A DNA stretch of 37,368 nt from a virus (IMGVR_UViG_2537561825_000012), one strand, 5' to 3'; positions 3,081-29,316 are shown, counted from the stretch's first letter. Notes: generated by a model from the sequence alone, not told the origin. Translations and numbers: made by a program.

Positions 3081-4327
3081 GCCCTTACGATGTAATTAAA
3101 CGCAATGTTACGGGGACGAATGGTCACATAATTAACCCCATCGCCTCGCGAAGGACCTGCAAATGAAAAACGGGAGAATCCAGGTTGGTTGTCAAGGATT
3201 TGGTCATAGTTATTGATTGAATGACCAGACCCAATGTCAAAATTACCTGCGTAATGAGAAAAACTTGTACCATCCTGCCGTGAAAGCAGATCGCGCCCTG
3301 TATCCACTTTTCGCCCGTCGTCCCATCCACGGATAAACTCACCGCGCAAATCGGGAAGACGGAGGGTCGGGTAGACTCTGGCCAGAACAGGATATTGTTC
3401 TTTTGTAAAGGCGCGCCCGTCGCACTTTAACCAGCCTGCTGGCGGTGTGGCAGTGGGCCACGGAACAGGTACACCAACGGGCAGCGCCGAGCCTTCCCCC
3501 AAACCAAGGTAATTGAGGACATCTTTTATACTGCCCTTAGCGATAATAGCGCGACCAATAGCTGTAAGGGTTGCCAGCTCTGCGCGGTCTGCTCCGGTAA
3601 AATAAGGCAACCGATCTGCTGCAGTGGCAAGTCCTGCCAGAGCAGTGAGCGTGGCATCTGCCGGTTGTTTTCCGTTTGCCAGATCGTATGCAGCCTTGAC
3701 CGCTTTCGGTGTGGCGGCCAGTATTTCAGACGTGCTGTTGATGGCACTGCTCAATTGTACGGTGCCTTTTGCCGTCAGCGAGGCAGCAGGCACTCCCGTT
3801 ATCTGACTCCACGGGTGAGTGTGGCTGACGGGCGCCTTGCCGGCTGCAAGGTCGTATGCAGCCTTGACCGCCTTCGGCGTGGCAGCCTCAGTTTCTGATT
3901 GACTGTCCGTGGCGCTGCTCAGTTGTACGGTGCCTTTTGCCGTCAGCGAGGCAGCAGGCACTCCCGTTATCTGACTCCACGGGTGAGTATGGCTGACGGG
4001 GGCCTTGCCGGCAGCCAGGTCATATGCAGCCTTGACGGCCTTTGGTGTGGCGGCCAGCGTTTCAGAGGTGCTGTTGGTGGCACTGCTCAGTTGGGTGAAC
4101 CCCTTAGCTGTCAGTGTCGCGTCCGGGTGGTTACGGGAACGTACGTGTTCAGCCAGTGACTGTGCGGCTTCCTCCGTTTTTTTCTTCAGCCATTTCGTCC
4201 TGTTTGCCAGTTGCCGGGGGGCTCGATTTGATATCCCGTCTGCACCACCCAGAACCGGATCTGATGTCTCCAGTTGATAGATATTTTCTTCCCACTTTTC
4301 TGTTTCATTCAGGTTTCCCATAATCAA
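3074..4327 (-). CDS. Tail fibre protein (constant part Sc fused to cassette Sv1 in the present orientation)
   Basis: 417 aa; three tandem 56-aa repeats (TAKG..QLSSA.....AATPKAVKAAYDLA.GK); C-terminus carries the conserved cassette block. Confidence 0.85.
   Translation of the reverse strand: MIMGNLNETEKWEENIYQLETSDPVLGGADGISNRAPRQLANRTKWLKKKTEEAAQSLAEHVRSRNHPDATLTAKGFTQLSSATNSTSETLAATPKAVKAAYDLAAGKAPVSHTHPWSQITGVPAASLTAKGTVQLSSATDSQSETEAATPKAVKAAYDLAAGKAPVSHTHPWSQITGVPAASLTAKGTVQLSSAINSTSEILAATPKAVKAAYDLANGKQPADATLTALAGLATAADRLPYFTGADRAELATLTAIGRAIIAKGSIKDVLNYLGLGEGSALPVGVPVPWPTATPPAGWLKCDGRAFTKEQYPVLARVYPTLRLPDLRGEFIRGWDDGRKVDTGRDLLSRQDGTSFSHYAGNFDIGSGHSINNYDQILDNQPGFSRFSFAGPSRGDGVNYVTIRPRNIAFNYIVRAA
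3494..3519. other. gix-like recombination site A at the Sc/Sv junction
   Basis: TTCCCCCAAACCAAGGTAATTGAGGA; homology between cassettes begins immediately downstream (transcript sense) of this site. Confidence 0.55.
3640..4111. repeat. Tandem 168-bp coding repeat, about 2.8 copies, inside the tail fibre gene
   Basis: GTCGTATGCAGCCTTGACCGCC-type segments recur at 3683, 3851 and 4019 (period 168 bp = 56 aa). Confidence 0.8.
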
Positions 4328-6987: not shown

Positions 6988-8138
6988 TTTTTCTTCTCCT
7001 TAATCACCGTCGATGTACTGCCATCCGGGTGATAAACCGTGAGTTTCTGAGTTTTTTGTTTTTTCCCTCTTGTGACTGGCCCCCGTGCCACTTCCAGCTC
7101 TGTGGTGTAGCCGCTGTTACGGTCAAACGCATGGCGGGCAGTGGTTATGAGCCATGGCCCGGATAACTGCCCAAAACCCACCAGTTCAATTTTGTTGCCT
7201 GCTGTCAGTTGAGGTGTTCCCGTCAGCGTCAGGGAGCCGTTCTGCTGGTATTCGTTATGTCTGGCCAGTGCTGAATCCGCTTTAATCCGGGCACTGTCCG
7301 GGTCGCTGACGCGGCTGTTAACTTTAAGTGAGTCAGCGCTGGTAACCTTACCACCTTTGAGCTTTTTGTCGCTTTCACGGGTACCACCATCAGCTTCGTA
7401 GACGATCAGTTTTTTACTGCTGCTTTTCTGGTGTTTTACCTTTGCAGATTTATAGACCCGGTTGATGGTGTCACGCAGGGAAAAGCGGGCCACATCCTGC
7501 GGTTTTAACTGCCTGACCGGCTCCTGACTGCGCAGTGTGGCCAGATGAGAAAAAATCAGCTGGTCACTGACCACTTTCACTGCATAACCATACTCGCTGG
7601 CCAGCCGGCGCAGAAAACCCACGTCGGTTTCAGCATACTGGGTCACCCGGTCGATTCTGATGGACTCAATGCTGCCCACCAGTTTCAGTCGGTGCTTTCT
7701 GGCAATCCGCCCCGCAACAGCTGCCAGCGTGGTGTTCTCAAAACCACGACTGGTTTTAGTCCGCAGGGCACTGTTAACCGAGGTGGCCACCCCACGGATA
7801 GAAACAACGGAAGCGGGCGAACTCACTTCGATCTCGTCTATAGAGAACGTACCGCAGGACAGCAGCTTCTCGCCCTGATAGCCCATTTTCAGCGTCAGCG
7901 TGTCACCCTTGCCCGGATACCATTTATCCAGCCAGCGGCCATCGGTGTCGTCCAGCTCCACCTCAATGGTATCGGACTCATTTTTGATGTTATCGCTCCA
8001 GGTCACACGGGTGACATAAGGCGCGATATCAGAGGTGATGTTTTTCTGCAGATACCACAAAGTGAACACCGGTGTCAGCACATCGCTGACGCCGGTTAAC
8101 GCTGATGTGACTTGCGCAGTGCTGTTTATCTCAGCCAT
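6984..8138 (-). CDS. Baseplate hub / late control D-like protein (P2 gpD, Mu gp44 P-like)
   Basis: 384 aa, size and position match gpD-type proteins. Confidence 0.7.
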   Translation of the reverse strand: MAEINSTAQVTSALTGVSDVLTPVFTLWYLQKNITSDIAPYVTRVTWSDNIKNESDTIEVELDDTDGRWLDKWYPGKGDTLTLKMGYQGEKLLSCGTFSIDEIEVSSPASVVSIRGVATSVNSALRTKTSRGFENTTLAAVAGRIARKHRLKLVGSIESIRIDRVTQYAETDVGFLRRLASEYGYAVKVVSDQLIFSHLATLRSQEPVRQLKPQDVARFSLRDTINRVYKSAKVKHQKSSSKKLIVYEADGGTRESDKKLKGGKVTSADSLKVNSRVSDPDSARIKADSALARHNEYQQNGSLTLTGTPQLTAGNKIELVGFGQLSGPWLITTARHAFDRNSGYTTELEVARGPVTRGKKQKTQKLTVYHPDGSTSTVIKEKKK

Positions 8139-8341
8139 GGGGCAATATCCTCTTCTGTACGGGCTTCTTCAGCCTCAATCACCGGGATCAGTAACAACAG
8201 CCCGGAGGGCAGCACCGGCGTGATGGCCACGTGCGGATTGGCGGCAATAATCCGGGGATAGCCCAGCGGGTCACCGTAGTACTGCCATGCCAGCGAATCC
8301 CAGCGCTCTCCGTCACGGGTAACATGTTCAAGAAACATCAC
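8126..8341 (-). CDS. Tail protein X-like (small LysM-like)
   Basis: 71 aa with W..YYG...........ANP pattern recalled from P2 gpX. Confidence 0.55.
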   Translation of the reverse strand: MMFLEHVTRDGERWDSLAWQYYGDPLGYPRIIAANPHVAITPVLPSGLLLLIPVIEAEEARTEEDIAPWLR

Positions 8342-9222
8342 ACACTCCTCGTCAGTATTCTGGCGGCCATTGCACTTAATTCCGGAGACATGCGGTTGAA
8401 TGCTGTGCCGGCGGCGTTAAGCTGCCCGGAAACGGTATCCAGAGCACCTGCAATATTTCTTTTGTCCACACCACTCAGCGCAGACTGTGCCTGCTGTACA
8501 TACGTGGCTGCTTCGCTGGCTGTTCTGGCCAGACTGATGGCATCGGGCATGGATTCAGAGAGTGCGTTAAACGCCGGAACACTTTTCCCCAGAGCCCCGG
8601 AGATATTACCCAGTCCGCTCATCAGCCCCGGCACACGGGTCAGTGCGACAACGGGGTTATCCTTCATTTTCTGTGTCACCCGAACGGCGCTGATAGTGGT
8701 CTGGAGTACAGACTGCGCCTGTTTCGCATAGTTGACGCCGTTGCGGATGAACTGCGCCACCCCTGAAGGTGAAGGTATGGCACCGGAGACCGCCCCGACA
8801 CCCGGGAGCTTCGTGCGTATTGCCGGTGGTTGCAGAGGATTTTTCGGGTCACCGGTGTATTCCCGGAGAGACACGGTGGCACTGACAGCCAGCACGTTGC
8901 CGGTACTGTCAGTCTGCTCGCTGGTTGCAGTCACATCGGTAATCACGAACCAGCCGCGATAGTCACCGTTGCCGAAGACCAGCGCCAGTGCCTGATGGGC
9001 TTTCATGGCTGTTCGCAGTCTCGCCAGCTCCACATCGGGTACACAATAATGCTGATGGAAAACCAGAGTTATCTGGATTTCGTCCAGCCTGTCGCCGACG
9101 AACTGCAGGCCAGGCTTACCCCCGATGCGGGCATGCTCCGCATAATCGACGCCGAACGTGGCCTCGAAGCCGTCCCAGTAGGTAATCAGCTCAAACTCAA
9201 TATCACCCAGTACGGCAAACAT
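8338..9222 (-). CDS. Tail/DNA-circulation protein (Mu N-like N-terminal domain)
   Basis: 294 aa ORF immediately downstream of the tape measure gene, overlapping its stop. Confidence 0.55.
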   Translation of the reverse strand: MFAVLGDIEFELITYWDGFEATFGVDYAEHARIGGKPGLQFVGDRLDEIQITLVFHQHYCVPDVELARLRTAMKAHQALALVFGNGDYRGWFVITDVTATSEQTDSTGNVLAVSATVSLREYTGDPKNPLQPPAIRTKLPGVGAVSGAIPSPSGVAQFIRNGVNYAKQAQSVLQTTISAVRVTQKMKDNPVVALTRVPGLMSGLGNISGALGKSVPAFNALSESMPDAISLARTASEAATYVQQAQSALSGVDKRNIAGALDTVSGQLNAAGTAFNRMSPELSAMAARILTRSV

Positions 9223-11912
9223 CAGCGGTACTCCTTACGTTGTTTCTGAGCCAGCAGACGCTCCAGCATTTTTTCCAGCTCATGCAGACTCATATTCAGG
9301 GCACCAGTCAGTCCTGCAGGCGCTGTGGTTTCCCTGCCATTGAGGAAAAACTGAGGATTAAAGCTGACCTGGATACCACCAGACGTTCCACCGCCGGTTG
9401 CAGCTGCACCACGGCCTGAATATCCGGCAGCCAGGATTTCAGGCGAGGGGATACGGGGAACATCCGGTGTCATCTCATTTGCCAGACGTTGCCCTGGTAA
9501 AATCGATGCCCGGGTGGAGAGCGGAATAGCGGGCATGGAAGACAAACTATTGATTACGGCTCCGATCGCATTTTTAGCAGACGACATAAACCCATTGATA
9601 TCGGGCAACGGCATACTGAAGCGAACACCTGAAGTGTTATCCCGTATTTCTGGCCCCTGGATGCTCACGGGCATTCTGGGGAGCAGTTCACTGGCCATTC
9701 GCTGCCCGGCCAGAGCTGCAAGCGGAGTGGTCCGCTGCAGGCCAATGGCGGCCCCCTGCGCGATATTGTCACCAAAGCCCATAAACACGCGGCTCGGCGA
9801 ATGAATGCCCAGCTTTTCGCTGACCCAGCCACTGATGCTGTCACCCATTCCGGTTACACTGGATTTGAGCGACTCCCATTTGTTTTTGATACCGTTAATC
9901 AGACCATCGACAAGATGGCCACCGAAGTCGGTAAACTTTGCCGGCAGATCAACACCAAGATATTTCAGCGCAGCTGCAAAGGCTTTATAGAGCAGGCCTG
10001 CCGGCGACCAGTTAATCAGTAACTTACCAATTCCCACAATGCCGCCGTTAAAGGCTTCCTGAATGTCTGCCCAGCGCTGTTTAAACCAGCCACTGACTGC
10101 CCCCCAGTTGCGGTAGATAAGGTAAGCTGCTGCCGCGACAGCGGTGATAACGAGACCGATGGGATTCATCATCAGCGCACGTCCAATCCAGAGAACAGCA
10201 CGTCCGGCGAGCATAATTCCGCGAACCAGCCCCCCGGAGAGCACGCCACTCAGTGTTCTGGCTCCTCTGGCGACGGCGCTAAATCCGGTCACCAGCCAGC
10301 GGAGCTTACCGCCTTGCCCCAGTGCGAGCGACAGACGAAGCCAGTTGGCCCGAAGTAAAACAGCATTTTTCCAGACACTTACAAAGGGGGAAATAAGGAG
10401 ATTCAGCCCCAGTTTGAGACCAACAGTCGCTATCTTAATCGCAAGGAGCGCACTGATGAGCTTAAAAGCCCCACTGACAAATTGCGGGTGAGTCGCTACC
10501 CAGTGTTTTGCCCCCTGAATGAGTGGAAGCAGTTCCTGAGTCAAAGAAATAAAAGATGGAGCTAATTGATCGCCCAGCGTAATTGCCAGATCGCGACTGC
10601 TGACCATAAGTGTTTTAGTGGCTTCAAGGGGAGATTTCAGCCGCTGATCATAAGCACTGGCAAGCAAATCGTTATCCGCAGCCCTGAGAGCACCGGCACG
10701 GATCTCTCGATATCTGTCCATGTTGGCCAGCATCGGGCGGATAAATGCCATGACCTGCATATCCGCGAACATATCGCCCAGACCAAAGTTTTTCGCCAGA
10801 GCCTGAAGTGCCTCATCTCTTGCCGTATCATTCTTTATTTTCATGGCTGATTTGAAGCCGGCCAGCGCTTCGGGGCTTTTGGCATTGAGGTAACGTTCTA
10901 TAACACTCAACATCCCTTCAATCGGAGAGATCCCCGCAGCTTTATAACTCGCAATAGATCCCTGCAAATCAATACCCAGATCAGCAAACTGTTTCTGAGT
11001 ATCGCGGGCAAAAATTTTGGTAAGAAAGTTTTTAAAATTATTGGCTGCTTCGTCGGTGGAACCTGCACCGATTTTTGCTATCTGGAGACTGGCCCCGATT
11101 TCAGCAACAGCCTCTTTTCCACTGGCAATCCCCGCCATCATTGGGGCCAGGGACTGCATCCACTTGACCTGATCCGGGATTTCAAATGACCCCTGGTCAC
11201 CGGCATAAGCCATAATATTCTGAACGGCACCAAAATCTCTGGCCGCACCTTTCAGGGAGTTTTGCCAGACTGCGGCCACTTTTGCCCAGTCCTGAGCAGA
11301 CGTGCGTGTTGCCGTTGCCGCGCGGGCAATATCCGGCATCAGAAAACCGATATCTGACACATTATCAATATTGTCGCTGATGAGTGAACCCACCGCCTCC
11401 TGCAGCTCATCCTGATACTGATTGTATTTAAGCGCCCAGCCTTTTATCTGTCCGGCAAGTCCATCCCGCGTTTTATTGTCATATTTTGCGGTGATCGACA
11501 TATCAATCATTTTGTCCTGAAAAGACATGGACTGCTGAACGGCAGGGGAAACCGTATGATAAACAGTCTGTGCCATGCCATACGCTTCAATCCCCTGACC
11601 ATACAGCGCCATGCGGTTAGCTTTCAGCGCATCACTGGTAGCGGATGCCGCTGACAGACGGCGCTGCTGGCGCTCAATTTGCTCCATGGTGCGGCTTACC
11701 CGCAGCAGCTCGCTGTTGAGATGCTGCATCCGGGAAGAACCCAGTTGACCATAACGTTCTGTTGCACGGGTTAAAGCGTTCTGACGTTCCTGCAGGCGGC
11801 GTGAGGTATCGCTCAGGGAATCAAGCGCACGGCGGGTACCGCTCATTGCAGAACGGAATGTGCTACCAATCATCCCGCCGATAACAACGCCGACTGAAAA
11901 CTGTCCCGACAT
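9222..11912 (-). CDS. Tail tape measure protein
   Basis: 896 aa, coiled-coil-rich N-terminus, Gly/Ala-rich hydrophobic middle; downstream of the frameshifted chaperone pair. Confidence 0.9.
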   Translation of the reverse strand: MSGQFSVGVVIGGMIGSTFRSAMSGTRRALDSLSDTSRRLQERQNALTRATERYGQLGSSRMQHLNSELLRVSRTMEQIERQQRRLSAASATSDALKANRMALYGQGIEAYGMAQTVYHTVSPAVQQSMSFQDKMIDMSITAKYDNKTRDGLAGQIKGWALKYNQYQDELQEAVGSLISDNIDNVSDIGFLMPDIARAATATRTSAQDWAKVAAVWQNSLKGAARDFGAVQNIMAYAGDQGSFEIPDQVKWMQSLAPMMAGIASGKEAVAEIGASLQIAKIGAGSTDEAANNFKNFLTKIFARDTQKQFADLGIDLQGSIASYKAAGISPIEGMLSVIERYLNAKSPEALAGFKSAMKIKNDTARDEALQALAKNFGLGDMFADMQVMAFIRPMLANMDRYREIRAGALRAADNDLLASAYDQRLKSPLEATKTLMVSSRDLAITLGDQLAPSFISLTQELLPLIQGAKHWVATHPQFVSGAFKLISALLAIKIATVGLKLGLNLLISPFVSVWKNAVLLRANWLRLSLALGQGGKLRWLVTGFSAVARGARTLSGVLSGGLVRGIMLAGRAVLWIGRALMMNPIGLVITAVAAAAYLIYRNWGAVSGWFKQRWADIQEAFNGGIVGIGKLLINWSPAGLLYKAFAAALKYLGVDLPAKFTDFGGHLVDGLINGIKNKWESLKSSVTGMGDSISGWVSEKLGIHSPSRVFMGFGDNIAQGAAIGLQRTTPLAALAGQRMASELLPRMPVSIQGPEIRDNTSGVRFSMPLPDINGFMSSAKNAIGAVINSLSSMPAIPLSTRASILPGQRLANEMTPDVPRIPSPEILAAGYSGRGAAATGGGTSGGIQVSFNPQFFLNGRETTAPAGLTGALNMSLHELEKMLERLLAQKQRKEYR

Positions 11913-24715: not shown

Positions 24716-25439
24716 AACTGCTGCCTCCCCATGTGAGATATCGCGGTGCCAGTTCGCGCAGGATGCGCTGCGGATAATGGCGGTTCTCCCGCCAGCTGGC
24801 CGCATTGCGTCCGGCATTCACCGTGGCGACATGTCCGAACCAGCGGGTGCTGTCCAGACCTTTCTGTGATGCAAGCCGCCTGTCCCGTTGTACCCAGCCC
24901 AGACCACCGTTATAGCCCGACAGTGTCATGGCCATACGCTCGCAGTCACTGGCGGCGCTGACACGCTGCCACAGCCAGCGGTCATAGCTGACCAGCGCCC
25001 GGATAGCCCATGCCGGATTAAACGGCTCACGACTGCTCAGCATCGGTATCAACTGGCTTATCCAGTCGGCAGTGGCAGGCATGAACTGCGCCAGTCCCTG
25101 AGCGCCAGCCGGCGAGATCGCATCAGGTCGCCAGCCGCTTTCCTGATGCAGTTGCGCGGCGAAATCGGCCACCGGCGCAGACAGTCCCCATTCAAGCCGG
25201 GCATTACGGATCACATCATCGCGATACTGCAGCGCAGCCTGCGGAGGTTGTGCTGCGCATGCCTGGCTGAAAAAGCCGCCACACCAGAGCAACATTGCGA
25301 CAAAGAATACCCATGCCATATGAACCAGAAAGGTCCCGGCGCGGACTGACAGGCGTTCGGTTCTGATGAAGACCCGAAAGGCTTCGAAAGCCAGTTTCAG
25401 GGACATGCATACAATCCAGGTGATCTGCGGCCAGTTCAT
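24699..25439 (-). CDS. Endolysin, lytic transglycosylase (SLT domain) with N-terminal signal/SAR-like segment
   Basis: SLT motif QLHQESGWRPDAISPAGAQGLAQFMPAT; ATG at 25439 lies 4 nt after the holin stop (alternative ATG at 25319). Confidence 0.8.
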   Translation of the reverse strand: MNWPQITWIVCMSLKLAFEAFRVFIRTERLSVRAGTFLVHMAWVFFVAMLLWCGGFFSQACAAQPPQAALQYRDDVIRNARLEWGLSAPVADFAAQLHQESGWRPDAISPAGAQGLAQFMPATADWISQLIPMLSSREPFNPAWAIRALVSYDRWLWQRVSAASDCERMAMTLSGYNGGLGWVQRDRRLASQKGLDSTRWFGHVATVNAGRNAASWRENRHYPQRILRELAPRYLTWGGSSCVASG

Positions 25440-25441
25440 GA

Positions 25442-25792
25442 TTAAAGCCCCATCGCAACAGCCAGGCAGACCGCTGCAACAATCAGTGCACGGCGGATTA
25501 ACGCAGCAGAAAACACCAGGTGAAGGCCGGTCTGTACCGGGAAACGCCCTTCAGCCATCAGCCTGTCGTCATGTTTCAGGTACTGACCGGGACGGGCTTT
25601 GGGGAAGAGCGAACGGTCAAGCCAGTAACCCAGCACTGCTGCCAGCGTGATGAGTGCCAGCTTGTAGATCACAACAGGCAGCTGCTGTGGTGAGACCAGA
25701 GCGATGGTGCCCAGCAACAGCACTGAGGTCAGCAGCCAGCCGCTGAGGCGAGGTTTTTTAACAGGGGGAATGAATTTTTTCAGTTTTTTCAT
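25442..25792 (-). CDS. Putative holin (three predicted TM segments)
   Basis: ATG at 25792 with AAGGAG 7 nt upstream; three hydrophobic segments; first gene of the lysis cluster. Confidence 0.55.
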   Translation of the reverse strand: MKKLKKFIPPVKKPRLSGWLLTSVLLLGTIALVSPQQLPVVIYKLALITLAAVLGYWLDRSLFPKARPGQYLKHDDRLMAEGRFPVQTGLHLVFSAALIRRALIVAAVCLAVAMGL

Positions 25793-25795
25793 GTG

Positions 25796-25818
25796 TGTCT
25801 CCTTATCTGGTGGAGACA
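25796..25818 (-). promoter_or_regulatory. Stem-loop sequestering the holin ribosome-binding site
   Basis: UGUCUCC / GGAGACA arms (7 bp) with 9-nt loop; the 3' arm contains the Shine-Dalgarno sequence. Confidence 0.4.
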
Positions 25819-25842
25819 GCATCACAAATACAGGGCGCGAAG

Positions 25843-25850
25843 GATTTTAA
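25843..25850 (-). promoter_or_regulatory. Candidate late promoter -10-like element upstream of the holin gene
   Basis: Minus-sense TTAAAATC followed 24 nt later by TGTCTCC (25818-25812), matching the element upstream of the I-like gene. Confidence 0.4.
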
Positions 25851-25922
25851 AGCGCGTTAAGAGAGCCGGGGATACGGGATGTGCAGGATAAACGATGAAT
25901 TATTCACAGAGGAGAATACGAT

Positions 25923-26651
25923 ATGACGCAGACACTGAATCCGGTCATCACTGTCACCGTGTCCGGTCCTGTGGGCAGCGGTAAAAGTTACGTACTGGCG
26001 CGAATAGAGGAAGTGGTGAAACAGGAATTCGGAAACAGCGTCATTGTCGACGCCGCAGACGTGGACGGTGAGCGCCGTATGAGTGGGGATGATCTGAGCA
26101 CATGGCAGAAACCACGGGCTGGCACAGTGATCAGGCTGGAGGAATACACGGGACAGGGCCTGTTGTCATACGGCGAGGAGCGTATCTGTCGGACGAATGA
26201 GCTGCTGGATGTTATATGCCCCACGGGCCGGCAACCCTGGATACTGCCCGATGCACTGCATGCCACCATTGCGGCACTGATGACAGTTTACGATCAGGAG
26301 CTGCTCATGAAGGAGTTACGTAAACTCACTGGTCAGTCAACAGAATGTTGTTCGTCCCCGAAGTACGGCAAACAGGAACACATCCCGATTAACCAGCCTC
26401 CCCGGTTCTTCGACGAATACCTTCTGACACCGGAAAATAAAGCTGAGCATGAAGAGATCAAAGCGGCGTTGTTCCGGGAAATCAGGAAGATTGCTGAAAT
26501 GCAACTGGAGGGCGGGCTGGACAGAGTGATGGCGAGAGGAGAATGGGCATCGCTGTTTGAAAGAGTTTCCCCGGAATTACTTCCCCTCGCACTGGCTATC
26601 GGGATTATGCAGACAGCGGATAAACCTCACTTACGTTCATTAAACACGTAA
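25923..26651 (+). CDS. P-loop NTPase, kinase-like (zeta-toxin / polynucleotide-kinase-like motif arrangement)
   Basis: Walker A GPVGSGKS at residues 15-22 followed about 14 aa later by GNSVIVDAAD; GGAG RBS 8 nt upstream. Confidence 0.6.
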   Translation: MTQTLNPVITVTVSGPVGSGKSYVLARIEEVVKQEFGNSVIVDAADVDGERRMSGDDLSTWQKPRAGTVIRLEEYTGQGLLSYGEERICRTNELLDVICPTGRQPWILPDALHATIAALMTVYDQELLMKELRKLTGQSTECCSSPKYGKQEHIPINQPPRFFDEYLLTPENKAEHEEIKAALFREIRKIAEMQLEGGLDRVMARGEWASLFERVSPELLPLALAIGIMQTADKPHLRSLNT

Positions 26652-27031
26652 CGCATAATCCGGGATACGCATTCAGCGATGACTGCATTTTCACCGGTTT
26701 TTACTGCATCCAGAAGTGACTCTTTAAATGGTACGGGCCGGGGCTGCAGAAAGGTCGGCATGGCATTGAGCAGACAGAGCGTTTTTTCCGTGAGGACGAC
26801 ATCAGCCGCTCCCACAGCCAGCAACTGAGAGTAACGAATATAGCTGTTATCCCGAAGCCATATCAGCGTATCAATAAAACACCGGCACTTTTTCTGGTCG
26901 TGATCAACCTGGTCCGGGATATCGAAAAAACCAGAATAAATCAAAACCTGAGGTGCCGGATGCGTGTTCAGTAATCGGCAGAATATTTTGCCGGTGAGTA
27001 CATAAAAATCATCATTTAAGGAGTGCATCAT
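26627..27031 (-). CDS. Hypothetical 134-aa protein, antisense to the surrounding plus-strand module
   Basis: Only long ORF covering the 380-bp plus-strand gap in moderately AT-rich DNA; convergent 25-bp overlap with the upstream gene. Confidence 0.45.
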   Translation of the reverse strand: MMHSLNDDFYVLTGKIFCRLLNTHPAPQVLIYSGFFDIPDQVDHDQKKCRCFIDTLIWLRDNSYIRYSQLLAVGAADVVLTEKTLCLLNAMPTFLQPRPVPFKESLLDAVKTGENAVIAECVSRIMRYVFNERK

Positions 27032-27245
27032 GAATCCCCGATTAACGTTAACAGAACATCAGCGCCGTGCTGAAGCAGTGAACAATGTTCTGGAAGATAT
27101 TATCCGGTTATACCGCGGAGAACTGAGTGTCTGTCGTGCCGCTTTTCATTTTCAGGGAATACAAAAGCAGTTTGATACTTCTGTTTTTGCAGAAGGTATT
27201 ACTTATGCCCTGGACCGGATAAGGTCAGAAAATCGCCCCGGATAA
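27030..27245 (+). CDS. Hypothetical 71-aa protein
   Basis: ATG with AAGGAG 6 nt upstream. Confidence 0.5.
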   Translation: MNPRLTLTEHQRRAEAVNNVLEDIIRLYRGELSVCRAAFHFQGIQKQFDTSVFAEGITYALDRIRSENRPG

Positions 27246-27300
27246 TCCCTAAACCACATTAACAGAAATCCCGCCATCCCTGCCGCATCATGAAAGAACG

Positions 27301-27330
27301 ACCAGCCCGGCACCCGAAAGCCGGGCTGGT
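27301..27330. other. Perfect 11-bp GC-rich stem-loop between the 71-aa ORF and the methyltransferase gene
   Basis: ACCAGCCCGGC-acccgaaa-GCCGGGCTGGT; no clean U-tract on the plus strand, UUCUUUC on the minus strand. Confidence 0.4.
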
Positions 27331-27435
27331 CATCGCCCCACAGGAATGCGCTGTGAGCCGACCAAGGTTCAGTCAGTCTCGCGAGACCTGACCAGACTGC
27401 CATATTTTTTAATAATTGTAAAAGGCTTGCAGATT

Positions 27436-28200
27436 ATGAAAATGCAGACATTACCCATCGTGCCGTGGATTGGTGGCAAACGCCGCCTTGCAAAACACAT
27501 TCTGCCGCTGTTTCCGGCGCATGAATGTTATGTGGAGCCGTTTTGTGGGGCAGCAGCGCTCTATTTTCTTAAGACACCCGGCAAGATCGAAGTCATCAAT
27601 GATATCAACGGTGAACTGGTGAATCTGTACCGGGTGGTAAAGCATCACCTGGAAGAATTTGTCCGCCAGTTCAAATGGGCGCTGGTCAGCCGTCAGATCT
27701 ACAAATGGCTGCAGATCACCCCGGAAGAAACACTGACGGATATCCAGCGTGCGGCACGGTTCTACTACCTTCAGAAGCAGGCGTTTGGCGGCAAGGTGGC
27801 AGAGCACAGCTTCGGTACCTCCACCACATCCCCGCCACGCTTCAACCTGCTACGTATTGAAGAAGAACTGTCAGCGGCACACCTGCGGCTTTCCAGAACA
27901 GTCATAGAACACATGGACTGGCAACAGTGCATTGAGCGTTATGATCGTCCGCACACGCTGTTCTACTGCGACCCACCGTACCTGGGTACGGAAGGCTATG
28001 GTGTGGATTTTCCTGAAGGGAACTACTCGCGGCTGGCAGAGCTGGCCCGGTGCATCAGAGGAAAAATGATAATTTCGGTGAACGACATCCCGCAGATGCG
28101 CGAGGTGTTCACTGGACTGAACATACAGACAGTGAATATCAACTACAGTCTGGCGGGTAAACCCACGCCGCGCCGTGAACTGCTAATCTGCAACTTCTGA
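27436..28200 (+). CDS. dam: DNA adenine methyltransferase, Dam family
   Basis: WIGGK, EPFCGAAA and CDPPY motifs; ATG at 27436 (the ORF-track start at 27346 is upstream). Confidence 0.8.
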   Translation: MKMQTLPIVPWIGGKRRLAKHILPLFPAHECYVEPFCGAAALYFLKTPGKIEVINDINGELVNLYRVVKHHLEEFVRQFKWALVSRQIYKWLQITPEETLTDIQRAARFYYLQKQAFGGKVAEHSFGTSTTSPPRFNLLRIEEELSAAHLRLSRTVIEHMDWQQCIERYDRPHTLFYCDPPYLGTEGYGVDFPEGNYSRLAELARCIRGKMIISVNDIPQMREVFTGLNIQTVNINYSLAGKPTPRRELLICNF

Positions 28201-28209
28201 AACAAAACC

Positions 28210-28232
28210 GGAAAGCACAATGCTTTCCGGTA
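28210..28232 (-). terminator. Intrinsic terminator between the convergent methyltransferase and repressor genes
   Basis: CCGGAAAGCA-caa-TGCTTTCCGG 10-bp stem; UUUUGUUU follows on the minus strand, so it terminates repressor-strand transcripts and possibly both directions. Confidence 0.55.
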
Positions 28233-28316
28233 AACCAAACAACTTCCACTATGTCACTGGCGATGTTTTCTGAAAGCATCCAGATCAACCACCTGTCCTT
28301 TGTGTCCGGGTCAGTA

Positions 28317-28673
28317 TCAGCCTGCGATTTTTCCTGGTTTTGGCTGAGTATAGAATCGCCCAATCTCAAGAAATGAGCGTTGTTGGTCTGGTGTCATGTC
28401 GTCAAAAGTATCTATTAGTTTTTGTTTTTCTGGGGAAATTTGATTCTGGTTTCTAGTCATACCATCTGTGCTCATTCCAGTGAGCAACCAATTTACATCA
28501 ACATTAAACTCTTGATGCATCTTTAACAGAAACTCCCCTCCAGGCATCGCCTTTCCATTTTCAATCTGACTGATACCACCATTAGAAATACCTAAACGAG
28601 CTGCAAATTCTCTCTGGTTCAACCCTGCTTTCTTCCTCACAGAAATAACGCGCTCTCCTATATCTTTGCTCAT
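28317..28673 (-). CDS. Prophage repressor, HTH XRE (CI/Cro-type)
   Basis: N-terminal HTH LNQREFAARLGISNGGISQIENG; divergent from the early operon; operator palindrome in the intergenic region. Confidence 0.8.
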   Translation of the reverse strand: MSKDIGERVISVRKKAGLNQREFAARLGISNGGISQIENGKAMPGGEFLLKMHQEFNVDVNWLLTGMSTDGMTRNQNQISPEKQKLIDTFDDMTPDQQRSFLEIGRFYTQPKPGKIAG

Positions 28674-28696
28674 AAAAGTGAATCTCTATCTTGATA

Positions 28697-28714
28697 TGCT
28701 CATAATTATGAGCA
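28697..28714. promoter_or_regulatory. Operator: perfect 18-bp palindrome between -35 and -10 of the early promoter
   Basis: TGCTCATAATTATGAGCA, flanked by TTGATA (28691-28696) and AATAAT (28714-28719); a half-site copy TGCTCATAA lies at 28667-28675 over the repressor start codon. Confidence 0.6.
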
Positions 28715-28766
28715 ATAATCTAACACATATAAGGCAAACATCATTGCATCAACAAAGGAGACAACG

Positions 28767-28955
28767 ATGACTGCAGAACAAGTCAAAGCTCTCTTCCGCC
28801 AGCGCGGGATCACTTTCACCCGCTGGGCAGAAGAAAACGGCTACAACCGCAATGAGGTATACCGCGTTCTCAACGGGCAGACCAAAGCCCGTTACGGTAA
28901 ATCCCATGAAATCGCCGTGAAGTTGGGACTGAAATCAACAGCTCAGGCGGCCTAA
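28767..28955 (+). CDS. Small DNA-binding protein at the Ner/Cro position
   Basis: 62 aa; AAGGAG RBS; first gene of the early operon, divergent from the repressor. Confidence 0.6.
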   Translation: MTAEQVKALFRQRGITFTRWAEENGYNRNEVYRVLNGQTKARYGKSHEIAVKLGLKSTAQAA

Positions 28956-29001
28956 ATATTTTGAGTCTTTGTAAAAGGTTATCACATATCGCAAAAGAGG
29001 T

Positions 29002-29316
29002 ATGCAGATGAGTAAGACGAATGTTTCAAGCTCCGGCAGTCGCATCCTCCGGGTACTCAAAGCGCTGCGCGGTCATGCCCTGAACGGTATTTCTAACGGT
29101 GAACTGGCGACAGCACTGCACGAGTCACCGGCAAACATCAACCGGGCACTCAACACCCTCATTGAAGAAGGGCTGGCTCTGAAACTGGAGAACGGACGTT
29201 TTGCACCGGGCATCCAGTTACTGCAGATCGCCATGGCCCACAGTAACGAGATGGCACGTGCACAGGATCGTATTAACGAAATTAACCAACGTGTCATTTC
29301 AGGTAGTCGTTTGTAA
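29002..29316 (+). CDS. Winged-helix transcriptional regulator-like protein
   Basis: 104 aa with an IclR-like N-terminal HTH pattern (GISNGELATALHESPANINRALNTLIEEG); likely start at the second ATG, 29008. Confidence 0.5.
   Translation: MQMSKTNVSSSGSRILRVLKALRGHALNGISNGELATALHESPANINRALNTLIEEGLALKLENGRFAPGIQLLQIAMAHSNEMARAQDRINEINQRVISGSRL

What the first reader, a model, noticed from the sequence alone, without database searches (positions are those of the whole stretch)
25923..28232. Central accessory module: P-loop kinase-like protein, antisense ORF, small ORF and Dam methyltransferase
Seen: between the leftward late operon and the repressor lies a plus-strand block with no counterpart in the canonical Mu gene order. 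The 242-aa protein has Walker A GPVGSGKS followed about 14 residues later by GNSVIVDAAD, the spacing I recall for zeta-toxin, polynucleotide-kinase and CPT-type P-loop kinases. Then come a convergent 134-aa ORF, a 71-aa ORF and a Dam-family MTase (DPPY). Inference: this is a moron-type island that could encode defence or anti-defence functions (kinase toxin or nucleic-acid-end kinase plus anti-restriction methylation). Nothing here is proven by sequence alone.
Basis: partly seen in the sequence, partly recalled or inferred. Interest (0 to 1): 0.7.

Follow-up and report, generated by a model that had tools for sequence, protein, structure and literature searches.

The report
Accessory gene cargo in Mu-like prophage
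The four genes are real and sit in the swappable cargo slot of a common E. coli ST131 prophage, but the "kinase" is only a 75-residue phosphate-loop mini-domain with shuffled tails. The only gene whose function can be named is an orphan DNA adenine methyltransferase.

Summary
The window is a BcepMu-type transposable prophage. The region is 100% identical to Escherichia phage PhiKM and occurs in 626 of 5426 complete E. coli genomes, including ST131 EC958.

All four ORFs exist as described and are conserved coding genes. Two corrections apply: the methyltransferase starts at 27436 (254 aa), and the phage is BcepMu-like, not Mu.

**Supported:** the holin-repressor interval is a variable cargo slot, with at least five alternative contents. 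It carries a D12-class, DPPY N6-adenine methyltransferase, very likely the published M.EcoMIV, which is silent in the lysogen.

**Not supported:** the zeta/PNK/CPT-type kinase reading.
- Only residues 1-75 of the 242-aa protein are conserved family-wide.
- They match other P-loop proteins only over strand-Walker A-helix.
- The "VIVD" aspartate is not conserved.
- Natural variants lack residues 52-124.
- The C-terminal parts are shuffled modules.

**New:** the 134-aa and 71-aa genes form a head-to-head pair with back-to-back start codons (CATCATG). The 134-aa family shows the same geometry in 45 of 45 related viral loci, mostly in the P2-like GpA-GpQ defence hotspot.

Functions of three of the genes remain inferred. 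My best guess is lytic-phase anti-restriction methylation, a counter-defence or host-interaction protein, and a self-regulating two-gene cassette.

The parts
25793..25922 (.). Divergent control region between the holin (leftward late/lysis operon) and the 242-aa gene. The conserved blocks GTGGAGACAGCATCACAAA (about 25811-25829) and GGATTTTAAAGCGCGTTAAGAG (25842-25863) are the likely activator-dependent late promoter. A GAGGAG Shine-Dalgarno sequence lies 8 nt before the 242-aa ATG.
   Evidence: The alignment of E. coli, Serratia and Klebsiella prophages keeps these blocks even where the neighbouring cargo differs. Sequence read. The scan found no good sigma-70 promoter for the 242-aa gene.
25923..26651 (+). 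242-aa mosaic protein (PHROG 3787, unknown function). Its parts are an N-terminal mini-domain with a Walker A loop (residues 1-75, 25923-26147; GPVGSGKS at 25965-25988), a middle module (about residues 85-139), a low-complexity linker, and a C-terminal helical module (about residues 177-242, 26451-26648).
   Evidence: The middle module recurs at the C-terminal end of P0036 and P0040. The C-terminal module exists alone as an 89-aa Serratia protein.
26627..27031 (-). 134-aa protein (PHROG 2266, unknown function). It is the larger partner of the head-to-head pair. Its 3' end overlaps the 242-aa gene by 25 nt, and the probable start is 27028 or 27031.
   Evidence: It has 53% identity to a Serratia prophage protein and about 31% to proteins of P2-like phages. 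It has no Pfam, PADLOC, NCBIfam or PDB match.
27026..27032 (.). CATCATG junction. The start codons of the 134-aa gene (-) and the 71-aa gene (+) lie back to back and overlap by 2 nt if 27031 is used. Each gene's ribosome-binding site therefore lies inside the other gene's coding sequence.
   Evidence: The same 2-nt CATG overlap is found in 45 of 45 related viral loci and in annotated P2-like phages.
27030..27245 (+). 71-aa protein (PHROG 4490, unknown function). It is the small partner of the pair, with an AAGGAG Shine-Dalgarno sequence 6 nt upstream of its ATG.
   Evidence: It has 31% identity to the 73-aa Serratia partner. It is not detectably related to the 63-64-aa partner in P2-like phages.
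27300..27331 (.). Perfect 12-bp stem with an 8-nt loop. As RNA on the minus strand it is followed by GUUCUUUCAU, so it could be a terminator or barrier for leftward transcription. On the plus strand it has no U tract.
   Evidence: inverted repeat I13; dG -36.3 kcal/mol, z -5.2.
27388..27416 (+). Promoter-like site (CTGACC, 17-nt spacer, AATAAT) just upstream of the methyltransferase start.
   Evidence: This is a consensus match only (9 of 12 positions) and has not been tested.
27436..28200 (+). Orphan D12-class (Dam family) N6-adenine DNA methyltransferase, 254 aa, with DPPY at 27970-27981. It is very likely M.EcoMIV (EC958_1101) of ST131 prophage Phi2.
   Evidence: PF02086 E=8.7e-29; TIGR00571 116 bits against a cutoff of 114.85; PDB relatives DpnM and EcoDam. 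EC958 carries the same prophage. Literature: PMC4659465 and PMC5654935.
28207..28231 (-). Intrinsic terminator (11-bp stem followed by UUUGUUU) at the end of the leftward repressor gene. It lies between the repressor and the 3' end of the methyltransferase gene.
   Evidence: inverted repeat I18.
28317..28673 (-). Prophage repressor (HTH_3, 118 aa). This is context only, marking the right border of the cargo slot.
   Evidence: The immunity region is swapped independently of the module in some E. coli prophages, where the match ends at about 28347.

Best explanation
The interval is the accessory cargo slot of a BcepMu-type transposable prophage (ST131 Phi2 / phage PhiKM). It lies between the lysis operon and the repressor.

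**Shown.** The slot holds four genes under purifying selection:
1. A 242-aa mosaic protein. Its only family-wide part is a roughly 75-residue N-terminal mini-domain with a Walker A phosphate loop. This is followed by exchangeable helical modules. It is not a P-loop kinase.
2. and 3. A self-contained head-to-head gene pair (134 aa and 71 aa) with back-to-back start codons. Its large member also occurs, with the same geometry, in the GpA-GpQ defence hotspot of P2-like phages.
4. An orphan Dam-family N6-adenine methyltransferase.

**Inferred mechanism.**
- The plus-strand genes (242 aa, 71 aa, methyltransferase) are lytic-phase genes. They may be driven from the activator-dependent divergent control region shared with the lysis operon, plus a local promoter for the methyltransferase.
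- The methyltransferase modifies replicating phage DNA before packaging, so that progeny escape restriction in the next host. This would be the functional counterpart of Mom in Mu.
- The mosaic P-loop protein acts on a host or defence target. The phosphate loop would bind a nucleotide or nucleic-acid ligand, and the swappable C-terminal modules would set specificity.
- The 134/71 pair is an autonomous, mutually antagonistic switch. Each mRNA leader is antisense to the other gene's 5' end. In this prophage, transcription of the plus-strand operon would silence the minus-strand 134-aa gene.
For: **Identity and spread.**
- The region is 100% identical to phage PhiKM, classified as Bcepmuvirus.
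- It is present in 626 of 5426 E. coli genomes and in EC958.

**Variable slot.**
- Alternative cargos are seen in E. coli C7, 21KM1392, AREA_C483, Klebsiella phage KP12 and BcepMu.
- Recombination joints lie inside the 242-aa gene and at the end of the methyltransferase gene.

**Mini-domain of the 242-aa protein.**
- An exhaustive HMMER search gives 64 hits that share only residues 1-75.
- Invariant residues are G15, G20, K21 and P64. E50 and W61 are nearly invariant.
- pLDDT exceeds 90 for residues 8-72.
- Stand-alone 75-89-aa versions exist.

**Lytic or counter-defence neighbourhoods of family members.**
- One member opens an early operon upstream of ERF and YqaJ in a Pseudomonas prophage.
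- One lies two genes from an Acb2/Tad1-hairpin protein.
- One lies within 5 kb of another Acb2/Tad1-hairpin protein in a 79-kb contig.
- One lies just before the HNH and terminase genes.

**The gene pair.**
- 45 of 45 loci have a partner ORF with a CATG start overlap.
- In P2-like phages the pair is flanked by a type VI retron, an AriA-like ATPase, PDC-M48B, Orf5/HEC-06 and PDC-S35.
- This is the GpA-GpQ hotspot described in PMC13586616.

**Methyltransferase.**
- It is the most conserved protein of the region between the E. coli and Serratia prophages: 83% identity, against 71% for the holin and 65% for the SLT endolysin. Its dN/dS is 0.03-0.09.
- M.EcoMIV is poorly transcribed in the lysogen, and no motif was seen there (PMC4659465).
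- No endonuclease partner is nearby.

**Transcription anatomy.**
Against: - No transcript, promoter or phenotype was measured here. The timing of expression rests on one published RT-PCR result for the methyltransferase and on geometry.
- No function could be assigned to the 242-aa, 134-aa or 71-aa proteins by any profile or fold search.
- The Acb2/Tad1 neighbourhoods are only two contexts and could be coincidence.
- A subclade of the P-loop family has GKN instead of GKS, and natural E. coli alleles lack residues 52-124. Nucleotide hydrolysis may therefore not be the point, and some alleles may be decaying.
- The 134-aa gene is frameshifted in E. coli PKF4.
- In the HMMER alignment, three of the residues I recall as the GATC contacts of EcoDam (R124, L122, P134) are not conserved. 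The target sequence, and hence which restriction systems it would counter, is unknown.
- In a dam+ host, a GATC enzyme would be largely redundant.
Confidence: 0.45

Rival explanations
1. The 242-aa protein is a zeta-toxin, PNK or CPT-type P-loop kinase. It would be a toxin or a nucleic-acid-end kinase, possibly with the 134-aa or 71-aa protein as its antidote.
For: - There is a good Walker A. It is followed 22 residues after the lysine by hhhhD (VIVD), the spacing seen in those kinases (the comparison with zeta, PNK and CPT is from my memory).
- There are weak P-loop profile hits.
Against: - No kinase family is hit. The best Pfam match is AAA_30 at 16.5 bits against a cutoff of 27.
- Family conservation stops at residue 75.
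- D43 is replaced by I, E, V, G or K in distant members.
- 182-aa alleles lack residues 52-124.
- PDB profile matches cover only positions 6-44.
- There is no LID, Walker B or substrate domain.
- The Serratia prophage keeps the locus without the P-loop domain.
Confidence: 0.05
2. The 134/71 pair, possibly with the 242-aa protein, is an unrecognised prophage-encoded anti-phage or superinfection-exclusion system. It would be expressed in the lysogen, like Old and Tin of P2.
For: - In P2-like phages the pair sits in the GpA-GpQ defence hotspot, directly beside retron, AriA-like, Orf5/HEC-06 and PDC systems.
- It moves between unrelated phage lineages as a unit.
- The small partner is replaced by a non-homologous one while the geometry is kept, as happens with cognate toxin/antidote or sensor/effector pairs.
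- In 0 synonymous against 6 non-synonymous differences, one E. coli allele of the 134-aa gene hints at diversification.
Against: - Neither protein has a PADLOC model.
- The pair is constant while the cargo around it turns over, in 45 of 45 loci. That looks more like a resident or regulatory element than a swappable defence gene.
- No enzymatic or membrane domain is detected.
- The proteins are very small.
- No expression data exist.
Confidence: 0.2
3. The 134-aa protein is a winged-helix DNA-binding regulator and the 71-aa protein is its modulator. Together they control expression of neighbouring cargo (here the methyltransferase) or of the lysis/late switch. This would be analogous in logic to com/mom of Mu or to C proteins of restriction-modification systems.
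For: - The conserved motif FL.ENGYI.Y ... V.LTEK.L.LN resembles the recognition helix and wing of winged-helix proteins. This is my reading of the alignment.
- One source names the Serratia homologue DUF2513.
- The annotators of phage Midge call it a putative transcriptional regulator.
- Divergent overlapping control regions are typical of autoregulated switches.
- The pair sits directly upstream of the methyltransferase in both the E. coli and Serratia prophages.
Against: - There is no Pfam hit, even for DUF2513, at E up to 10 for six members.
- There is no PDB sequence match.
- The pair in P2-like phages has no methyltransferase beside it.
- The 71-aa protein has one cysteine, so it is not a Com-type zinc finger.
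- It is not related to Tum of phage 186.
- No LexA box is present.
Confidence: 0.2
4. The block is a type II restriction-modification system or its remnant. The 71-aa ORF would be the controller protein, and the 134-aa or 242-aa protein would be the nuclease.
For: - The methyltransferase matches PADLOC type II MTase models strongly (E=9.4e-112) and also PD-Lambda-5_B.
- A small ORF lies upstream of it.
Against: - No nuclease fold or motif is detected in any neighbour.
- The 71-aa protein has no Xre-type HTH hit.
- The methyltransferase occurs alone, or beside unrelated cargo, in related prophages.
- The published analysis treats it as an orphan.
Confidence: 0.03
5. Apart from the methyltransferase, the genes are decaying passengers with no current function.
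For: - Truncated alleles (141-158 aa) and internally deleted alleles (182 aa) of the 242-aa gene exist.
- The 134-aa gene is frameshifted in strain PKF4.
- A degraded copy of the locus is seen in L088.
Against: - dN/dS is well below 1 for all genes.
- Order and reading frames are kept between E. coli and Serratia at 31-53% protein identity.
- The 134-aa family and its start-codon geometry are conserved in 45 loci.
Confidence: 0.07

Closest known systems
Orphan Dam-family (D12 class, alpha group) phage methyltransferases, e.g. T4 Dam, P1 Dam and DpnM/EcoDam relatives; specifically M.EcoMIV of E. coli ST131 EC958 prophage Phi2
   Same: - It has the PF02086 domain and the DPPY catalytic motif.
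- Its length is about 254 aa.
- It has no cognate endonuclease and is prophage-borne.
- It is silent in the lysogen according to PMC4659465.
   Different: - It scores far below the EcoDam equivalog model (66.5 bits against a cutoff of 441).
- In the HMMER alignment, EcoDam R124, L122 and P134 are replaced by A, K and S. That these residues are the GATC contacts is from my memory of the EcoDam structural work.
- The recognition sequence has never been determined.
Mom/Com DNA-modification module of phage Mu
   Same: Both are anti-restriction DNA-modification functions carried as non-essential cargo by a transposable phage. Both are kept off in the lysogen, and both have a small ORF immediately upstream. 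This is a comparison of role and position only.
   Different: - The chemistry and protein family are unrelated: Mom is an acetyltransferase-fold adenine modifier.
- The 71-aa protein lacks the four-cysteine zinc finger of Com.
- The position in the genome is different.
Accessory or defence hotspots of temperate phages (P2 GpA-GpQ hotspot, Rousset et al. 2022, PMC9122126; PMC13586616)
   Same: - It is a fixed slot between core genes with rapidly exchanged, mostly uncharacterised cargo.
- The 134-aa family with its head-to-head partner lies physically inside the P2 hotspot, beside known defence systems.
   Different: - The slot here belongs to a different phage lineage (Bcepmuvirus) and lies between the holin and the repressor.
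- None of its cargo in five variants matches a known defence model convincingly.
- The orientation and the published RT-PCR point to lytic rather than lysogenic expression, at least for the methyltransferase.
P-loop kinases (zeta toxin, T4 polynucleotide kinase, chloramphenicol phosphotransferase) and ABC/AAA ATPases
   Same: It has a strand-GxxGxGK[ST]-helix-strand element. The profile of the N-terminal domain aligns to this element of ABC transporters, cytidylate kinase and the designed 'phosphate-loop protein' 6c2u with E of about 1e-5 to 1e-3.
   Different: - The conserved unit is only about 75 residues.
- It has no Walker B strand in the usual place, no LID and no signature motif.
- No fold match was found.
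- The serine after the lysine is asparagine in a subclade.
Proteins with a constant N-terminal domain and polymorphic C-terminal modules (e.g. fused toxin-antitoxin CapRel, polymorphic toxins)
   Same: The architecture is alike: one conserved N-terminal domain followed by shuffled, lineage-specific C-terminal modules.
   Different: There is no sequence or fold relationship, and no toxin or sensor domain is recognised. This is a resemblance of design only.

Membership tests
P-loop kinases (zeta toxin PF06414 / PNK / CPT type) | Significant match to a kinase family profile | tested here: not met
   Pfam, NCBIfam and PADLOC give only sub-threshold generic Walker-A hits: AAA_30 at 16.5 bits against 27, and KAP_NTPase at 13.4 against 20.
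P-loop kinases (zeta toxin PF06414 / PNK / CPT type) | Complete alpha/beta NTPase core (five-stranded sheet, roughly 170 residues or more) with LID and substrate regions | tested here: not met
   - Family conservation ends at residue 75.
- The model is confident only for residues 8-72.
- Natural alleles lack residues 52-124.
P-loop kinases (zeta toxin PF06414 / PNK / CPT type) | Walker A GxxxxGK[ST] | tested here: met
   GPVGSGKS occupies residues 15-22. G15, G20 and K21 are invariant in 16 diverse members and S22 is at least 90% conserved, although a subclade has GKN.
P-loop kinases (zeta toxin PF06414 / PNK / CPT type) | Conserved catalytic aspartate at the end of the strand after helix 1 | tested here: not met
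   D43 is present in the enterobacterial subgroup only and is I, E, V, G or K elsewhere. An acidic residue at position 46 is common but not invariant.
Dam-family / D12-class N6-adenine DNA methyltransferase | PF02086 domain and the TIGR00571 family model | tested here: met
   PF02086 gives E=8.7e-29 and 101 bits against a cutoff of 22. TIGR00571 gives 116 bits against a cutoff of 114.85. PDB relatives are DpnM and EcoDam.
Dam-family / D12-class N6-adenine DNA methyltransferase | Catalytic motif IV, DPPY | tested here: met
   DPPY is at residues 179-182 of the 254-aa protein, 27970-27981.
Dam proper (GATC-specific, EcoDam equivalog) | Equivalog model score and conservation of GATC-contact residues | tested here: not met
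   - NF008152 scores 66.5 bits against a cutoff of 441.
- EcoDam R124, L122 and P134 align to A, K and S. The loop alignment at about 20% identity is uncertain, so the specificity itself remains untested.
Type II restriction-modification system | Adjacent cognate endonuclease (with or without a controller protein) | tested here: not met
   No nuclease or Xre-type controller is detected in the neighbours. The methyltransferase stands beside unrelated cargo in relatives.
Moron (classical definition: autonomous promoter-gene-terminator unit, expressed from the prophage, patchy distribution) | Patchy presence among close relatives and deviating composition | tested here: met
   There are at least five alternative contents of the slot. 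G+C is 0.47-0.53 against 0.55-0.60 in the late region.
Moron (classical definition: autonomous promoter-gene-terminator unit, expressed from the prophage, patchy distribution) | Expression in the lysogen | not testable with these tools
   [quoted passage not shown] That argues against lysogenic expression of the methyltransferase. Nothing is known for the other three genes.
Known anti-phage defence systems (PADLOC 2.0) | Match of the component proteins to a defence-system model | tested here: not met
   The 242-aa protein gives only E of 0.003 or weaker, all Walker-A matches. The 134-aa and 71-aa proteins give no hits.
Resident of the P2-like GpA-GpQ hotspot (134-aa family with head-to-head partner) | Homologue located between gpA and gpQ next to known defence genes, with the same back-to-back start codons | tested here: met
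   (45 of 45 loci).
Tum antirepressor of phage 186 / SOS operon | Homology to Tum and a LexA box upstream | tested here: not met
   hhalign probability is 0.04%. There is no LexA-box match between 27032 and 27400.
DUF2513 / winged-helix regulators (for the 134-aa protein) | Profile match or winged-helix fold | tested here: inconclusive
   - One source's name for the Serratia homologue is DUF2513.
- Pfam gives no hit for six members at E up to 10, and the PDB profile search gives none.
- No structure prediction quota was left. The motif resemblance is my reading.

The most novel reading that the evidence does not exclude
The region would hold two undescribed phage devices.

1. A natural minimal phosphate-loop domain of about 75 residues (strand, Walker A, helix, strand, plus invariant E50, W61 and P64). 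It would work without a full NTPase core, for example as an oligomeric sponge for nucleotide second messengers or as a poison or decoy for ABC/SMC-type defence ATPases. Shuffled C-terminal modules would direct it to different targets.

2. A mobile two-gene cassette whose divergent genes share a CATG start-codon overlap. It would be a mutually exclusive antisense switch that travels between defence and accessory hotspots of unrelated temperate phages (P2-like and BcepMu-like). It would encode either a new exclusion system or the regulator of hotspot cargo.
Probability: 0.2. Interest if true: 0.7.

Novelty: new member of a known kind. Interest (0 to 1): 0.4.

Why it matters
This prophage is carried by about one in nine complete E. 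coli genomes in the collection, including the pandemic ST131 clade C.

- Its methyltransferase, M.EcoMIV, has had no assigned target since 2015. If it acts during lytic growth, it would shape which strains the phage, and DNA it transduces or transposes with, can enter.
- The work removes a tempting but wrong annotation (kinase, 'ABC transporter ATPase', 'KAP NTPase'). It replaces it with a defined 75-residue phage-specific domain family with shuffled tails.
- That family is found in early and accessory regions of several phage types, twice near Acb2/Tad1-like counter-defence genes.
- The work also flags a conserved head-to-head gene pair inside the well-studied P2 defence hotspot that current defence catalogues do not list.

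Both the domain family and the gene pair are cheap to test experimentally.

Tried and rejected
1. **Kinase, zeta or PNK membership.** Rejected by profile, conservation and fold tests.
2. **First AlphaFold run.** Only close E. coli homologues were used, and it gave pLDDT 44, which was useless. A 59-sequence alignment fixed only the N-terminal domain.
3. **Fold searches.** The BFVD viral fold search gave nothing. The afdb50 library was unavailable.
4. **Genome-collection scan with the N-terminal domain.** One attempt failed because no stretch was conserved enough. The next was swamped by generic P-loop patterns, with only one true relative, L011.
5. **134-aa protein as Tum of phage 186.** No similarity. 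No LexA box nearby.
6. **134-aa protein as DUF2513, winged helix or T7 gp5.5-like.** No Pfam or PDB support. The gp5.5 lead from the Midge annotation was not tested, for lack of a gp5.5 alignment and of structure-prediction quota.
7. **Homology between the 71-aa partner and the P2-type 64-aa partner.** None detected (hhalign).
8. **Restriction-modification system or Com/Mom analogue.** Rejected on missing nuclease, HTH and zinc-finger features.
9. **Repressor operator.** The palindrome GCTCATAATTATGAGC occurs only at the early promoter, not near the module.
10. **Rfam.** No RNA family in 25400-29100.
11. **PADLOC and Pfam on the alternative cargos of the slot.** Nothing convincing apart from NA37 and DUF2441.
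12. **Literature.** Nothing on PhiKM, DUF2513 function, or EC958 locus tags other than the methyltransferase.

Full report
**What the window is.** The 37.4-kb window is a complete BcepMu-type transposable prophage.
- The late genes (tail, head, terminase, lysis) run leftward from about 25.8 kb.
- The early genes run rightward from 28.77 kb: a Ner-like protein, an IclR-type HTH protein, DUF3102, a DDE transposase, an ExeA-type protein, Gam, GemA and Mor.
- Region 25800-28400 is 100% identical to Escherichia phage PhiKM, classified as Bcepmuvirus.
- It occurs in 626 of 5426 complete E. coli genomes, and 482 of these hold at least 80% of it.
- ST131 strain EC958 carries the same prophage next to ycaL/cmk.

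**Observation check.** All four ORFs are at the stated coordinates.
- Walker A GPVGSGKS is residues 15-22, and GNSVIVDAAD follows 14 residues later.
- The 134-aa ORF converges on the 242-aa ORF with a 25-nt overlap.
- DPPY lies at 27970-27981.

These are genes, not chance ORFs:
- Each matches its own PHROG family end to end.
- Each exact sequence is on about 1000 or more contigs.
- PGAP calls all four.
- dN/dS is 0.22-0.34 (242 aa), 0.31-0.37 (71 aa), 0.03-0.09 (methyltransferase) and 0.20 (134 aa against Serratia).

Corrections:
- The methyltransferase starts at 27436 (254 aa).
- The 134-aa gene may start at 27028.
- The reference phage is BcepMu rather than Mu. BcepMu has gp18-gp20 in this interval.

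**The 242-aa protein is not a kinase.**
- Pfam, NCBIfam and PADLOC give only sub-threshold Walker-A hits.
- The word-indexed search found only E. coli-type relatives of at least 62% identity. These include 182-aa alleles lacking residues 52-124 and 141-aa truncations.
- The exhaustive HMMER search of 1.84 billion representatives found 64 proteins. They share only residues 1-75 and then diverge into unrelated or shuffled C-terminal segments.
- The window's middle module (about residues 85-139) recurs at the C-terminal end of P0036 and P0040.
- Its C-terminal module (residues 177-228) exists alone as an 89-aa protein in Serratia prophages.
- Across 16 diverse N-terminal domains, the invariant residues are G15, G20, K21 and P64. 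V13, G18, S22, E50 and W61 are nearly invariant.
- A profile of the domain aligns to solved structures only over positions 6-44 (strand, P-loop, helix, start of the next strand). The hits are ABC transporters, cytidylate kinase and the designed 'phosphate-loop protein' 6c2u, with E of 1e-5 to 1e-3.
- With a 59-sequence alignment, AlphaFold is confident for residues 8-72 (pLDDT above 90) and poor elsewhere.
- Stand-alone 75-89-aa versions exist.

I conclude that this is a phage-specific mini-domain carrying a real phosphate loop, fused to exchangeable modules. The database names 'ABC transporter ATPase', 'KAP family NTPase' and 'P-loop NTPase fold protein' reflect the Walker A alone.

**Contexts of the mini-domain family.** Every genomic context I examined for family members is in a phage or prophage:
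- The first gene of a small-gene operon upstream of ERF and YqaJ in a Pseudomonas prophage.
- A lambdoid nin-type region, two genes from an Acb2/Tad1-hairpin protein and just before an HNH gene.
- A 79-kb contig, upstream of an NAD ligase gene and within 5 kb of another Acb2/Tad1-hairpin protein.
- Just before the HNH and terminase genes in an HK97-like prophage.

These are lytic-cycle or accessory positions. That is weak guilt-by-association for a host-interaction or counter-defence role.

**The 134/71 pair.**
- The two genes are head to head. The plus-strand ATG is at 27030-27032. The minus-strand ATGs are at 27029-27031 and 27026-28, all within CATCATG.
- The 134-aa protein has a 53%-identical homologue in Serratia BcepMu-like prophages and homologues of about 31% identity in P2-like phages: Midge, FSL SP-004 and ST147-VIM1phi7.1.
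- In every annotated case, a 63-73-aa ORF diverges from it with overlapping starts.
- In 45 of 45 IMG/VR loci with a relative, I found a partner ORF (63-86 aa; 34 unique sequences) overlapping by exactly 2 nt in CATG.
- The P2-type partner is not detectably related to the E. coli and Serratia partner (hhalign probability 0.15%). The geometry is conserved while the small partner is not.
- In P2-like phages the pair lies between gpA and gpQ, and known defence genes flank it directly. These are a type VI retron RT with its HTH protein, an AriA-like ATPase, PDC-M48B, Orf5/HEC-06 and PDC-S35.
- This is the defence hotspot described in PMC9122126 and PMC13586616.
- Neither protein matches Pfam, PADLOC, NCBIfam or PDB sequences.
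- The motif FL.ENGYI.Y...V.LTEK.L.LN looks like a winged helix to me, but this is untested.
- Tum of phage 186 and a LexA-controlled antirepressor were excluded.

**The methyltransferase.**
- It is a D12-class enzyme: PF02086 at 1e-28, TIGR00571 just above its cutoff, and related to DpnM and EcoDam.
- It has no nuclease partner.
- It is far below the EcoDam equivalog score.
- In the HMMER alignment, EcoDam R124, L122 and P134 are replaced. Their role as GATC contacts is from my memory of the EcoDam structural work, so GATC specificity should not be assumed.
- It is very likely M.EcoMIV (EC958_1101, prophage Phi2). Forde et al. found that gene to be an orphan, poorly transcribed in the lysogen, and without an assignable motif.
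- It is the most conserved protein of the whole region between the E. coli and Serratia prophages: 83% identity, against 71% for the holin and 65% for the SLT endolysin.

**The locus as a cargo slot.** Contents of the slot between holin and repressor:
- This window: P-loop protein, 134 aa, 71 aa, methyltransferase.
- Serratia: 89-aa C-terminal module only, 139 aa, 73 aa, methyltransferase.
- E. coli C7: truncated P-loop protein plus two unrelated genes.
- 21KM1392 and Klebsiella KP12: DUF2441 protein, methyltransferase and one further gene.
- AREA_C483: methyltransferase, a 401-aa protein and an NA37 nucleoid-associated protein.
- BcepMu: gp18-gp20.

Match boundaries fall inside the 242-aa gene, at the end of the methyltransferase gene, and inside the repressor gene. 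So the slot is variable. However, the methyltransferase is nearly core for the enterobacterial clade, and the four-gene order is old rather than a recent insertion.

**Transcription anatomy.**
- The holin-proximal control region has two blocks conserved across genera regardless of cargo. They are presumably the activator-dependent late promoter.
- The 242-aa gene has a strong Shine-Dalgarno sequence but no good sigma-70 promoter. It could share that activator site divergently.
- No plus-strand terminator separates the 242-aa, 71-aa and methyltransferase genes.
- A very stable hairpin at 27300-27331 (dG -36, z -5.2) and the terminator at 28207-28231 would both block leftward transcription.
- A promoter-like site precedes the methyltransferase.
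- The repressor operator palindrome occurs only at the early promoter.

**Best explanation and rivals.** My best account, with confidence 0.45, is as follows.
- This is a cargo slot holding a lytic-phase anti-restriction methyltransferase.
- It also holds a mosaic phosphate-loop protein acting on a host or defence target.
- It also holds an autonomous head-to-head switch cassette whose minus-strand gene is silenced when the plus-strand operon fires.
- Shown: gene reality, family structure, the failed kinase membership, slot variability, the pair's conserved geometry and its residence in the P2 hotspot.
- Inferred: expression timing, and all biochemical roles other than 'adenine methyltransferase'.

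Rivals, with confidence:
- The pair as an unrecognised exclusion or defence system (0.2).
- The pair as a winged-helix regulator plus modulator (0.2).
- Decaying passengers (0.07).
- Kinase toxin (0.05).
- Restriction-modification remnant (0.03).

**Novelty.** The sequences and the methyltransferase are already in databases and partly in the literature, and accessory hotspots are a known kind of thing. I found no description of the following in the literature searches I ran:
- The definition of the 75-residue domain family with shuffled tails.
- The start-codon-overlapping pair shared by the BcepMu-like and P2-like slots.
- The holin-repressor interval as a cargo slot.

Interest is moderate (0.4). 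The work removes a wrong functional label and gives two cheap experimental leads, but it answers no long-standing question.

Noticed in passing
window 27033-27056 and 27244-27267: Imperfect 24-nt direct repeats (75% identity; AATCCCCGATTAACGTTAACAGAA and AATCCCTAAACCACATTAACAGAA). They begin 3 nt after the start codon and at the stop codon of the 71-aa ORF, so they bracket it exactly. This may be chance, or a scar of how the small partner gene was exchanged (D1).
   Followed up: no
window 28698-28713 (and half-site 28665-28675): A perfect 16-bp palindrome, GCTCATAATTATGAGC, lies between the repressor and the Ner-like gene, with a related half-site over the repressor start codon. It is a likely operator. 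It occurs nowhere else in the window.
   Followed up: partly
L080 (E. coli PKF4), locus 1640-2060: In this prophage the 134-aa gene carries a 1-nt deletion and is not annotated. The P-loop gene is the 182-aa internally deleted allele. The 71-aa gene and the methyltransferase stay intact.
   Followed up: partly
L007 (Klebsiella phage KP12) about 3580-3600; alignment A9: KP12 lacks the P-loop gene, but it keeps a Shine-Dalgarno sequence plus ATGAC at the position where that gene starts in the window. This suggests a remnant of a former P-loop gene.
   Followed up: no
L084 5663-5893; L085 180-596; L086 147-557: Proteins with the Acb2/Tad1 hairpin domain (anti-CBASS/anti-Thoeris sponges) lie near two independent members of the P-loop mini-domain family.
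   Followed up: no
L029, L031, L055, L057, L072 (IMG/VR P2-like contigs): The P2-like GpA-GpQ hotspot around the 143/64-aa pair carries different systems in different contigs: a type VI retron (RT plus HTH), an AriA/PDC-M29A-like ATPase, PDC-M48B, Orf5/HEC-06 and PDC-S35. Two other flanking proteins (241 and 274 aa in L037) match nothing.
   Followed up: partly
L010 (E. coli AREA_C483) 7382-9597: An alternative cargo of the same slot: a 401-aa protein with a weak KwaA-like match (E=8e-4), next to a 335-aa NA37 nucleoid-associated protein. This may be an uncharacterised two-gene system.
   Followed up: no
proteins P0044 (2018 aa) and P0085 (1264 aa): Two long repetitive proteins match short pieces of the 242-aa profile many times. 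One matches residues 108-142, the other residues 20-83. Their origin and meaning are unknown, and the matches may be low-complexity or repeat artefacts.
   Followed up: no
window 28117-28132: The only near-LexA-box match close to the module (CTGAACATACAGACAG, one mismatch to CTGT-N8-ACAG) lies inside the 3' end of the methyltransferase gene. The count of such matches window-wide is at chance level.
   Followed up: no
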